Source of the DNA: the human T2T-CHM13v2.0 reference genome, Homo sapiens
DNA length: 64,000 bases
Assembly: GCF_009914755.1 (NCBI RefSeq)
Contig: NC_060932.1
Direction: 5' to 3' (one strand)
Positions 9,882 through 11,132 of the stretch are shown piece by piece (within the stretch, counting starts at the first letter, position 1; each line of letters opens with the position of its first letter). Under the pieces are notes generated by a model that saw only the letters and a program-made list of their open reading frames with translations, was not told where the DNA came from and did no database searches. The position numbers and the translations under genes were made by a program.

Positions 9882-10477
9882 GCCTGCAAAGACTTGGAAT
9901 CTCAACCAACCATTAGAGGCACTAGAAATATTATACCCAGATATTTCTCCCCAAAAGAACATAGGACTTTTATTGGTGGTGACATAACAACTCTACTTAG
10001 TGAAATCTGATCGAGTCCCTTAATGGTGAAATGACACACTGGGTGGAGCCAGTTATGCTGTTTCACTTCAAGCCGTCCTCTCCACCTTCCAGACTATTCC
10101 TATGGGAGATGATTATTAGCCCGTTTTTTTCCAATGTTTTGTCTAAAAATAACCAAAATTTAACTTTTCCTGAGAATTACATGGACTTCTGGAAGTACTT
10201 TTCCCACTGCTTTTAAGTGGGCTCTCCTCCCTTTAACACCCACCCATTTTTTTCATATGAACTCTTATTTTTTTTTTTATCTTAAACCTTTTCATTCATA
10301 GCTTTCAATCTGCATTTTGAACCTAATAGGAAATCTCTGTTGGGCTTCAGCACTGTCTGTATTTAACACCATGTGTTTCTTTCTAGGATTTAGATGTTGT
10401 GCATGAAAAACTATATAGTGAATGGTTTTATAAGTTCTAAAGCTAACAGAAATTACTCTTGTATTTTCCTATATCAG

Positions 10478-10511
10478 GAAATAAAGATGGAGGAAGCTAT
10501 GACCTACACAG
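10478..10511 (+). CDS. SULF1: SULF1 34-nt penultimate microexon
   Basis: TCAG| acceptor, CAG|GTATTC donor; encodes (G)[10 protein letters not shown](R) and joins the flanking exons in the canonical frame. Confidence 0.95.
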
Positions 10512-11132
10512 GTATTCACACTTTTTTATTCTTCTCAACAGCTTCTTCCCCAATAATTGCATGATCCAGTGGTTTCAACTAATTTCTGTTTCTTACCGTG
10601 TTGCACAGAGCAAAGCTGGGGGTGCATGCTTGTTCTAACAGCATTCTCCACTATGTTTTGTCATTGATCACAGAACTGTCATTTTGCTTTTAAATCAGCT
10701 CACTGTCCCATCAAGATGTTCCAGAGCATTTACTCACTCCCATGCTTGTTTGCTTGTTGGATGATGCTTTTAAGCATGGAATGATGTGAAGGAAAAAAAA
10801 CAGAATGGCCTTTGGGAGCCCCGGGAAAGGGTGGGAGATTTATTTTCTTTGTGGTACTTACACATTGATTTGGTGGGGGAGCTTCATGAAAATGGGTTGG
10901 AGATTTTTATTAAATATAGCATCAAAGGCACAAAATGACTAATGAGAATTTTAAGAGCACTGTAAGGCCGAAGTTGAAGGAAACAAGGAATTTCTTTGTT
11001 GATGTTCATTCATTAACTTTGGTGGTGAAAAGCAGCAGCCGTAAGATTCTGAAAGCTCTGCAGAGAGGTGGTGAATAACGAGAAGGTGCTGGGAGTTGGG
11101 GACAGAGTACCGGGAGTCAAGACACTAGTAAA

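What the first reader, a model, noticed from the sequence alone, without database searches (positions are those of the whole stretch)
10400..10780. Splicing-regulatory motifs around the 34-nt frameshifting exon
Seen: weak donor CAG|GTATTC; three TGCATG hexamers (10400-10405 upstream; 10558-10563 and 10623-10628 downstream); ACTAAT at 10578-10583; CTAAC branch-like motif near 10443; TGCT cluster at about 10743-10768. Established: UGCAUG binds RBFOX, ACUAAY binds QKI, YGCY binds MBNL, and downstream binding usually promotes inclusion. Inference: cells rich in these factors include the exon (short tail) and other cells skip it (long tail). This would be the control element of the switch above.
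Basis: partly seen in the sequence, partly recalled or inferred. Interest (0 to 1): 0.7.

Follow-up and report, generated by a model that had tools for sequence, protein, structure and literature searches.

The report
Candidate splicing control near SULF1 micro-exon
The short stretch around a 34-base exon of the human SULF1 gene does carry an unusual cluster of RBFOX-type binding words that could help decide which of two protein tails is made, but the exon switch itself is already catalogued and its control by these factors remains untested.

Summary
Only some exceed chance. Three sense-strand TGCATG lie within 229 nt, against 0.13 expected. Seven of 5000 dinucleotide shuffles reach three, and this is the only such + strand cluster in 64 kb. 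A repeated TGCTTGT word is also over-represented. ACTAAY, TAAY and YGCY are at background density.

CTAAC (10443) and ACTAAT (10578) read better as branch points. The first serves the exon's own acceptor. The second serves a nearby alternative acceptor at 10608|10609 that matches a mouse transcript.

The exon is truly alternative. Skipping it opens a 272-aa ORF in the annotated 3'UTR. That tail is present in Sulf-1 models from primates to sharks. The event is listed for mouse and human in Preussner et al. 2020, with RNA-seq support and a brain peptide.

No paper or supplement I could search names a regulator. Intron conservation could not be tested here.

Verdict: a plausible RBFOX-type enhancer next to a known switch. 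It is ordinary in kind and unproven.

The parts
10400..10405 (+). Upstream UGCAUG, 73-78 nt before the exon. In the RBFOX position map an upstream site is expected to repress.
10443..10447 (+). CUAAC, the likely branch point of the exon's own 3' splice site. The branch A at 10446 is 32 nt before the first exon base.
   Evidence: position read from sequence; branch-point consensus yUnAy recalled
10453..10477 (+). Polypyrimidine tract and acceptor AG (ttactcttgtattttcctatatcag).
10478..10511 (+). The 34-nt penultimate coding exon with a purine-rich core (GGAGGAAG). Inclusion gives the tail ...[21 protein letters not shown]. Skipping shifts the frame. 29 of 34 nt are identical to the SULF2 paralogue's exon.
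10512..10517 (+). Suboptimal donor GUAUUC, lacking consensus +4A, +5G and +6U. SULF2 has the same type (GUAUUU).
10522..10536 (+). U-rich run (UUUUUUAUUCUUCUC) at +11 to +25, a candidate TIA1/PTB-type element.
   Evidence: role inferred from recalled literature; paralogue similarity not significant
10558..10563 (+). Downstream UGCAUG at +47.
10578..10583 (+). ACUAAU. A single QKI-core match, but better read as the branch point (A at 10582) for the alternative acceptor AG at 10607-10608.
   Evidence: mouse transcript
10584..10608 (+). Pyrimidine tract (17 of 23) plus CAG. This is an alternative 3' splice site giving a 97-nt mini-intron. There is no AG between 10568 and 10607.
10618..10628 (+). 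GGGGG directly abutting UGCAUG (+107 to +117). It is the only G-run-plus-TGCATG composite in the window.
10624..10633 (+). CAUGCUUGUU, first copy of a repeated word.
10741..10768 (+). CAUGCUUGUU, UGCUUGUU and UGCUU: three UGCU within 26 nt at +232 to +257. A candidate MBNL or CELF site.
10774..10778 (+). Additional GCAUG at +263.
13227..13246 (+). AAUAAA and the end of RefSeq exon 10478-13246. This is an intronic poly(A) outcome competing with splicing of the 34-nt exon's donor.
   Evidence: hub annotation
28159..28976 (+). Start of the last exon. Frame 1 gives the short tail (stop 28187-28189). The frame used after skipping stays open for 272 aa to TAG at 28974-28976.

Best explanation
The region is the cis-regulatory neighbourhood of a genuine, ancient alternative micro-exon of SULF1. 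The exon is hard to define because it is 34 nt long, has a suboptimal donor, and is followed by a 17.6-kb intron. I think its inclusion most likely depends on two things: its purine-rich exonic core, and an intronic enhancer made of the two downstream UGCAUG words (+47 and +112, the second fused to a G5 run). RBFOX proteins would bind these words, with hnRNP H/F possibly binding the G run, and promote use of the donor.

Inclusion gives the canonical 871-aa enzyme ending in GQLWDGWEG. Skipping gives a protein of about 1122 aa with a conserved 272-aa acidic tail. CTAAC (10443) and ACTAAT (10578) are branch points, not QKI sites.

Shown: the motifs, their excess over chance, that the exon is alternative, and that both products are conserved. 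Inferred: that RBFOX binds here, and that binding favours inclusion.
For: - Motifs at the stated places.
- TGCATG: 3 observed vs 0.13 expected, 7 of 5000 shuffles reach 3, the only + strand cluster of its kind in 64 kb, and 0 sense copies within 250 nt of the 8 other annotated exons checked.
- In an unbiased scan of hexamers at -100..+300, TGCATG ranks third of 376 distinct hexamers.
- GGGGGTGCATG is unique in the window.
- Exon length, weak donor and long downstream intron fit the reported profile of RBFOX-enhanced micro-exons. In Li et al. 2015, 41.7% of RBFOX-enhanced alternative exons are 51 nt or shorter against 8.6% of skipped exons, and they have weaker splice sites and longer introns (PMC4317164, section 9).
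- The exon is truly alternative. The exact skip junction NLDV|EDSYGMDGK, or a close variant, appears in most of the 100 Sulf-1 models returned, from primates to coelacanth.
- Mouse and human events are listed with RNA-seq support, RT-PCR primers and one brain peptide in Preussner et al. 2020 (PMC7392665, methods passage and supplementary files 1-2).
- The region is single-copy in the genome.
Against: - No binding or knockdown data for this exon were found.
- SULF1 with RBFOX, QKI or MBNL1 returns no relevant paper in main-text searches.
- The exon is absent from the supplements I could search: Rbfox2 neural-crest knockout (only 2 small files held); QKI/RBFOX1 in breast cells; QKI/miR-200, where the one SULF1 event is a different exon; micro-exon study (5 of 6 files searched).
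- One UGCAUG lies upstream, where repression is expected.
- The skip-specific peptide came from brain, an RBFOX-rich tissue.
- SULF2 has the same 34-nt exon and donor type but only one TGCATG nearby, 369 nt downstream. Its flanks show no significant similarity to SULF1's.
- As an untargeted test over 376 hexamers, the TGCATG excess would not survive correction.
- Conservation of the flanks is unknown.
Confidence: 0.38

Rival explanations
1. The protein-binding words are chance occurrences. Inclusion level is set by basal signals only: the purine-rich exon core, the suboptimal donor, the U-rich run after the donor, and exon shortness. The two isoforms are then made at a roughly fixed ratio or vary with general spliceosome activity.
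For: ACTAAY, TAAY and YGCY are at background density. The TGCATG excess is modest once 376 hexamers are considered. The exon core shows extra synonymous identity with SULF2: 7 of 8 conserved degenerate codons are identical, against 34 of 75 in neighbouring exons (Fisher one-sided P 0.026). That points to exonic rather than intronic control. SULF2 keeps the same exon and donor without the cluster. Penultimate exons as a class are often skipped (PMC7392665, section 5).
Against: Three TGCATG plus a fourth GCATG lie next to the one alternative micro-exon, and none lie next to the 8 other exons checked. Only 7 of 5000 shuffles reach three. Preussner et al. report skipping of such exons to be highly tissue-specific as a class.
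Confidence: 0.3
2. The main regulators are MBNL or CELF proteins, acting through the repeated (CA)UGCUUGUU word: three copies at 10626, 10743 and 10751, plus UGCUU at 10765.
For: GCTTGT and TGCTTG are the two most over-represented hexamers in -100..+300 (3 copies each; P 1e-4 and 3e-4). Three TGCT within 26 nt is found at only 4 + strand places in 64 kb. An Mbnl1 motif was enriched among penultimate exons regulated during neuronal differentiation (PMC7392665, section 5).
Against: Two of the three copies lie about 230-250 nt from the donor, at the edge of the usual active zone. Overall YGCY density is at background. The repeated word may be a small local duplication. No MBNL data were found for SULF1.
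Confidence: 0.12
3. The motifs act on a different choice: whether the 34-nt exon's donor is spliced to the distal last exon or the transcript ends inside the intron. The intronic endings are the RefSeq exon 10478-13246 (AAUAAA at 13227) and a mouse-type terminal exon entered through the acceptor at 10608|10609. On this reading the words lie in a mini-intron and a 3'UTR.
For: The annotation lists exon 10478-13246, and AATAAA lies 19 nt before its end. ACUAAU plus a pyrimidine tract plus CAG makes a good acceptor, with no intervening AG. Mouse ENSMUST00000186051 has an exon starting 96 nt after the 34-nt exon and gives ...HRA, as the human reading does. UGCAUG at 10558 lies 20 nt before that branch point. 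UGCAUG at 10623 lies 15 nt inside that exon.
Against: No human transcript in the hub table starts at 10609. The abundance of these isoforms is unknown. No data link the factors to poly(A) choice here.
Confidence: 0.12
4. QKI controls inclusion through ACUAAU at +67.
For: One exact ACUAAU lies downstream of the exon. SULF1-expressing mesenchymal cells generally express QKI (recalled).
Against: A single copy is at chance density (P 0.14). The nearest downstream UAAY is 52 nt away, so the bipartite element (recalled definition) is not met. The position fits a branch point. This exon is not among the events in the QKI supplements searched.
Confidence: 0.05

Closest known systems
RBFOX-enhanced micro-exons (Li et al. 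2015, Genome Res, PMC4317164; abstract and section 9 read)
   Same: The exon is 51 nt or shorter, has a weak splice site and a long downstream intron, and has sense UGCAUG words within about 120 nt downstream.
   Different: No CLIP, knockdown or conservation evidence exists for this exon. It was not found in the 5 supplementary files searched (file 1 was not searched). One UGCAUG lies upstream. SULF1 is mainly a mesenchymal gene, whereas that study centred on brain, muscle and heart.
Splicing-accessible coding 3'UTRs: frameshift by skipping of the penultimate exon (Preussner et al. 2020, Genome Biol, PMC7392665; abstract, sections 5, 15 and 26, and parts of supplementary files 1-2 read)
   Same: This exact event is listed for mouse (1:12850760-12850793) and human (hg38 8:69640808-69640841). 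It has a 272-aa frameshift tail, RNA-seq support and one brain peptide, and it escapes nonsense-mediated decay.
   Different: That paper treats the class as proline-rich, destabilising extensions and names no regulator for Sulf1. Here the tail is acidic (net charge -16), carries motifs conserved from primates to sharks, and the candidate control words are described.
c-src N1 exon downstream control sequence: a G-run plus UGCAUG after a very short exon
   Same: A very short exon is followed by a G-run next to UGCAUG in the downstream intron.
   Different: The resemblance is recalled only. Spacing and the PTB-site context were not compared.

Membership tests
RBFOX-dependent downstream intronic splicing enhancer | Sense-strand (U)GCAUG within about 300 nt downstream of an alternative exon | tested here: met
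   TGCATG at +47 and +112, GCATG at +263
RBFOX-dependent downstream intronic splicing enhancer | Motif density above background | tested here: met
   3 vs 0.13 expected; 7 of 5000 shuffles; 0 copies near the 8 other exons checked
RBFOX-dependent downstream intronic splicing enhancer | Motifs conserved across species | not testable with these tools
   No vertebrate genome other than the window's own is held. The SULF2 paralogue shows no flank similarity, which says little after so long a divergence.
RBFOX-dependent downstream intronic splicing enhancer | RBFOX binding (CLIP) and a PSI change on RBFOX perturbation | tested here: inconclusive
   No record in main-text searches or in the supplements searched. 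Coverage was small, and SULF1 may not be expressed in those systems.
QKI response element | ACUAAY core with a UAAY half-site 1-20 nt downstream (definition recalled) | tested here: not met
   One core at 10578. The next downstream TAAY is at 10636. A TAAT lies 20 nt upstream.
MBNL YGCY cluster | Several closely spaced YGCY (UGCU/GCUU) near the regulated exon | tested here: inconclusive
   Three UGCU within 26 nt is rare (4 + strand places in 64 kb). However, the cluster lies at +232 to +257 and region-wide YGCY is at background.
Splicing-accessible coding 3'UTR (frameshifting penultimate exon) | Penultimate exon length not divisible by 3, new stop in the last exon, at least 20 new residues with at least 10 encoded in the annotated 3'UTR | tested here: met
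   34 nt; TAG at 28974 in the last exon; 272 new residues
Splicing-accessible coding 3'UTR (frameshifting penultimate exon) | Skipping seen in transcripts | tested here: met
   Not by my own RNA data. Supplementary table flags are Annotated=YES and SupportedByRNASeq=YES for mouse, and YES for human in the orthologue sheet, whose header I did not read. Skip-junction proteins are annotated in many species.

The most novel reading that the evidence does not exclude
The 34-nt exon is a decision point kept since the jawed-vertebrate ancestor. It is read by RBFOX/MBNL-class factors and switches SULF1 between two forms. One is the plain short-tailed enzyme. The other carries a conserved, acidic, mostly disordered 272-aa module whose invariant D-F-S-G-(D/N)-G-x-T-E-L-E motif is a glycosaminoglycan attachment site. 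The sulfatase would then become a part-time proteoglycan in some cell types. This would echo the chondroitin/dermatan sulfate chain reported on Sulf-2 (bioRxiv 10.1101/2021.01.04.425218; search listing and start of abstract only).
Probability: 0.1. Interest if true: 0.7.

Novelty: new member of a known kind. Interest (0 to 1): 0.35.

Why it matters
SULF1 edits the 6-O-sulfation of heparan sulfate and so tunes Wnt, FGF, BMP and VEGF signalling (general knowledge). In what I could search, work on its splice forms concerns exons 6-8 and 18 (passages of PMC8999074). A second C-terminus, conserved from sharks to humans and chosen by one 34-nt exon, is a largely unstudied layer of control. Knowing which factor sets the choice would say in which cells the long form is made. 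It would also give a handle, by antisense oligonucleotide or minigene, to study that form. The regulatory proposal itself is conventional motif reading. Its value is as a concrete, cheap experiment rather than as a surprise.

Tried and rejected
- Pfam on the 271-aa tail gave nothing above threshold. The best hit was NMT at E 0.21.
- Searching the window's own genome with the tail found no SULF2 counterpart. The chr20 hit at 47.2 Mb (E 0.29) is not SULF2, which lies at 49.40 Mb.
- Skipping the SULF2 exon gives only short tails.
- SULF1 and SULF2 intron flanks show no significant local similarity. This includes the U-rich run after the donor, where 65 of 500 shuffles score as well.
- RNA folding of 10390-10640 gives z -0.14.
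- The exon-intron stem that loops out the donor gives z -1.5, with 15 of 200 shuffles folding as well. The SULF2 analogue gives z +0.43. I rejected it as evidence and kept it as a lead.
- An earlier fold call used wrong SULF2 coordinates (second sequence). It was redone.
- A first SULF2 translation was off by one base and was corrected.
- A first translation from the alternative acceptor used 10610 and was corrected to 10609.
- Main-text searches for SULF1 with RBFOX2, rbfox*, QKI or MBNL1 gave only unrelated co-mentions (checked).
- Supplement look-ups in an Rbfox2 knockout, two QKI studies and the micro-exon study did not list this exon.
- The Rbfox HITS-CLIP paper is not held.
- The AlphaFold model of the tail is low confidence (mean pLDDT 48), so I ran no fold search.
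- The representative-library search added only fragments and no new family.

Full report
**What is there**

The window is the 3' end of human SULF1 (hub annotation). Reading 10200-11000 confirms every item in the finding:
- The exon is 10478-10511 (34 nt), preceded by ...tatatcag and followed by GTATTC.
- TGCATG lies at 10400, 10558 and 10623.
- ACTAAT lies at 10578 and CTAAC at 10443.
- TGCT lies at 10743, 10751 and 10765.

**Is it more than chance?**

- The + strand of the window holds 22 TGCATG. The whole window shows no excess over shuffles (43 on both strands vs 46 expected).
- Locally, 3 copies fall in 381 nt where 0.13 are expected (Poisson 3.4e-4).
- Three or more occur in 7 of 5000 dinucleotide-preserving shuffles of the region.
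- It is the only + strand place with 3 copies in 229 nt. The - strand has one such place, at 63673-63796.
- None of the 8 other annotated exons in the window has a sense TGCATG within 250 nt.
- An unbiased scan of all hexamers at -100..+300 ranks GCTTGT, TGCTTG and TGCATG first to third of 376 distinct hexamers, with 3 copies each. With 376 tests, only the first is near significance as an untargeted result.
- Three TGCT within 26 nt occurs at 4 + strand places in 64 kb.
- ACTAAY (1 vs 0.15), TAAY (4 vs 3.4) and YGCY (5 vs 4.1) are at background.
- The region is single-copy in the genome.
- The donor matches the consensus at 6 of 9 positions. By my reading, it is the only one of the 7 donors listed there without both +4A and +5G.

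**Is the exon really a switch?**

- With the exon, the reading frame ends ...[25 protein letters not shown], with its stop in the last exon.
- Without it, the frame shifts and stays open for 272 residues to TAG at 28974. No other ORF in any frame of the last exon exceeds 63 codons.
- The open frame begins within 9 codons of the last exon's acceptor (open frame 280 aa for a 271-aa match).
- Both stops lie in the last exon, so neither product should be a decay target.
- A search with the tail returned 100 proteins. Most are named extracellular sulfatase Sulf-1 (a few 'arylsulfatase' or 'hypothetical protein') and most are about 1120 aa long. They come from primates, other mammals, marsupials, turtles, crocodilians, birds, amphibians, coelacanth, sharks and a skate (E 1.6e-164 to 1e-21).
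- Of those 100, 84 carry my anchor YKQCNPR. In all but three of these (P0074, P0089, P0090, which look like hybrid models) the anchor is followed directly by the skip junction, for example NLDV|EDSYGMDGK. The 16 without the anchor were not examined at the junction.

**Is the switch already in print?**

- Preussner et al. 2020 (PMC7392665) describe frameshift by skipping of penultimate exons as a class (abstract and section 5).
- Their methods give splicing-sensitive RT-PCR primers for mouse Sulf1.
- Supplementary file 1 lists mouse 1:12850760-12850793 with the 272-aa frameshift tail, Annotated=YES and SupportedByRNASeq=YES.
- An orthologue sheet pairs it with human hg38 8:69640808-69640841, flagged YES/YES. 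I did not read that sheet's header.
- Supplementary file 2 lists the peptide SNPRLSLEDWTNYLRAVYR for SULF1 among frameshift C-termini. The main text says these come from mouse brain lysate.
- They name no regulator for Sulf1. Their class-level motif analysis found Pcbp3 and Mbnl1 motifs.
- The splice variants studied by the Dhoot laboratory lack exons 6, 7, 8 and 18, not this exon (passages of PMC8999074).

**Paralogue comparison**

- SULF2 lies on G000 contig 20 near 49.40 Mb, minus strand.
- It has a homologous 34-nt exon, 29 of 34 nt identical, with donor CAG|GTATTT.
- It also has an extra in-frame 54-nt exon.
- Among conserved degenerate codons, 7 of 8 are identical in the 34-nt exon against 34 of 75 in three neighbouring coding pieces (Fisher one-sided P 0.026). 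This hints at selection on the RNA, for example an exonic enhancer in GGAGGAAG.
- SULF2 has no long alternative ORF. Skip products end after 10 or 35 new residues (counted). It has no tail homologue.
- It has one TGCATG in the neighbourhood, 369 nt after the 34-nt exon and 72 nt after the 54-nt exon.
- Intron flanks of the two genes show no significant similarity.

**Other readings of two motifs**

- CTAAC at 10443 places an A 32 nt before the exon, as a branch point would.
- ACTAAT at 10578 places an A 26 nt before AG 10607-10608. A 17-of-23 pyrimidine tract lies between them, and no AG occurs from 10568 to 10607.
- An exon starting at 10609 would follow a 97-nt mini-intron and read ...HRAKLG....
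- Mouse transcript ENSMUST00000186051 has an exon starting 96 nt after the 34-nt exon and ends ...HRA.
- RefSeq also has exon 10478-13246, and AATAAA lies at 13227.
- The stretch after the exon therefore serves at least three outcomes: distal splicing, skipping, and termination within the intron.

**Mechanism**

I take the downstream UGCAUG pair, perhaps with the G-run, as the most likely functional element, acting as an RBFOX-type enhancer of a hard-to-define micro-exon. Support comes from the statistics above and from class behaviour in Li et al. 2015 (section 9):
- RBFOX-enhanced alternative exons are strongly enriched for exons of 51 nt or less (41.7% vs 8.6%).
- They have weaker splice sites and longer introns.

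Here the downstream intron is 17,647 nt and the upstream intron 1,953 nt.

Against this reading:
- There is no binding, perturbation or conservation evidence.
- One site lies upstream.
- The skip-form peptide came from brain.
- The exon is absent from the few supplements I could search.

I put this reading at about 0.38. The rivals are chance plus basal signals (0.30), MBNL/CELF through the UGCUUGUU repeats (0.12), control of the intronic terminal-exon choice (0.12) and QKI (0.05).

**The tail, briefly**

- Alignment of the human tail with 10 tail-length relatives (26-63% identity) shows several conserved features:
  - an N-terminal block (W..L..LYS..E..Y..R....W.N..K.VD..FAL);
  - an invariant or near-invariant F-S-G-N-G...E-L;
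  - N139, P142 and E143;
  - an E-G-S near the end.
- The human tail has net charge -16 and one SG, in ETDFSGDGMTE.
- AlphaFold2 gives mean pLDDT 48, with one helix at residues 44-74. The tail is therefore probably mostly disordered.
- The acidic-SG-x-G pattern resembles glycosaminoglycan attachment sites. That resemblance is recalled, not tested.
- A chondroitin/dermatan sulfate chain is reported on Sulf-2 (search listing and start of abstract only).

**Verdict**

The QKI and MBNL parts are weak. The switch is already catalogued. This is a new candidate member of a well-known kind of element.

Noticed in passing
window 28159-28976: The 272-aa frame opened by exon skipping is conserved in Sulf-1 models from primates to sharks. 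It carries an invariant F-S-G-(N/D)-G..E-L motif in an acidic, mostly disordered sequence, which resembles a glycosaminoglycan attachment site. Pfam finds nothing.
   Followed up: partly
window 10574-10609 and 13227-13246: ACTAAT, a pyrimidine tract and CAG form a plausible alternative acceptor, giving a 97-nt mini-intron. It matches a mouse Ensembl transcript that starts an exon 96 nt after the 34-nt exon, and both read ...HRA. AATAAA at 13227 serves the RefSeq exon ending at 13246.
   Followed up: partly
L011 (G000 contig 20, about 49.398 Mb, minus strand); SULF2 exon at index 3522-3555 of my gene-strand copy: SULF2 has the same 34-nt exon (29 of 34 nt identical) with the same donor type. 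7 of 8 conserved degenerate codons are identical, against 34 of 75 in neighbouring exons (P 0.026), which suggests RNA-level constraint. Skipping in SULF2 opens no long ORF.
   Followed up: yes
L011, index 3800-3853 and 3925 of my gene-strand copy: SULF2 has an extra in-frame 54-nt exon (QFQRRKWPEMKRPSSKSL) with a strong GTGAGT donor and a TGCATG 72 nt downstream.
   Followed up: no
window 10490-10499 with 10541-10550: The exon core GGAGGAAGCU can pair with intronic AGCUUCUUCC (10 bp, one G-U), looping out the donor. SULF2's minimum-energy fold has an analogous stem. Neither fold is significant against shuffles (z -1.5 and +0.43).
   Followed up: partly
window 10512-10519: The RefSeq exon 10478-10517 listed by the hub would be followed by AC, not GT, in this assembly. 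It adds two in-frame residues (YS). This is an unusual donor or a modelling artefact.
   Followed up: no
window 10624-10633, 10741-10750, 10751-10758: CATGCTTGTT occurs twice and TGCTTGTT a third time. GCTTGT and TGCTTG are the most over-represented hexamers around the exon.
   Followed up: partly
window 11894-12068: The alternative cassette exon (acceptor ...cccaaag, donor CAT|gtatgt) would end the frame early: a 35-residue tail with the exon included, or 12 residues if the 34-nt exon is skipped as well. It is a possible poison exon.
   Followed up: no
window 63673-63812: A dense group of TGCATG/CATGCA words on both strands, the only other 3-in-229-nt cluster in the window. It may be a local repeat.
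   Followed up: no
window 28161-28973: The human frameshift tail printed in Preussner et al.'s table differs from this assembly's at two residues (R for H in ..LQPI?RHP.., A for T in ..EGS?SSS..). These are probably coding polymorphisms within the tail.
   Followed up: no
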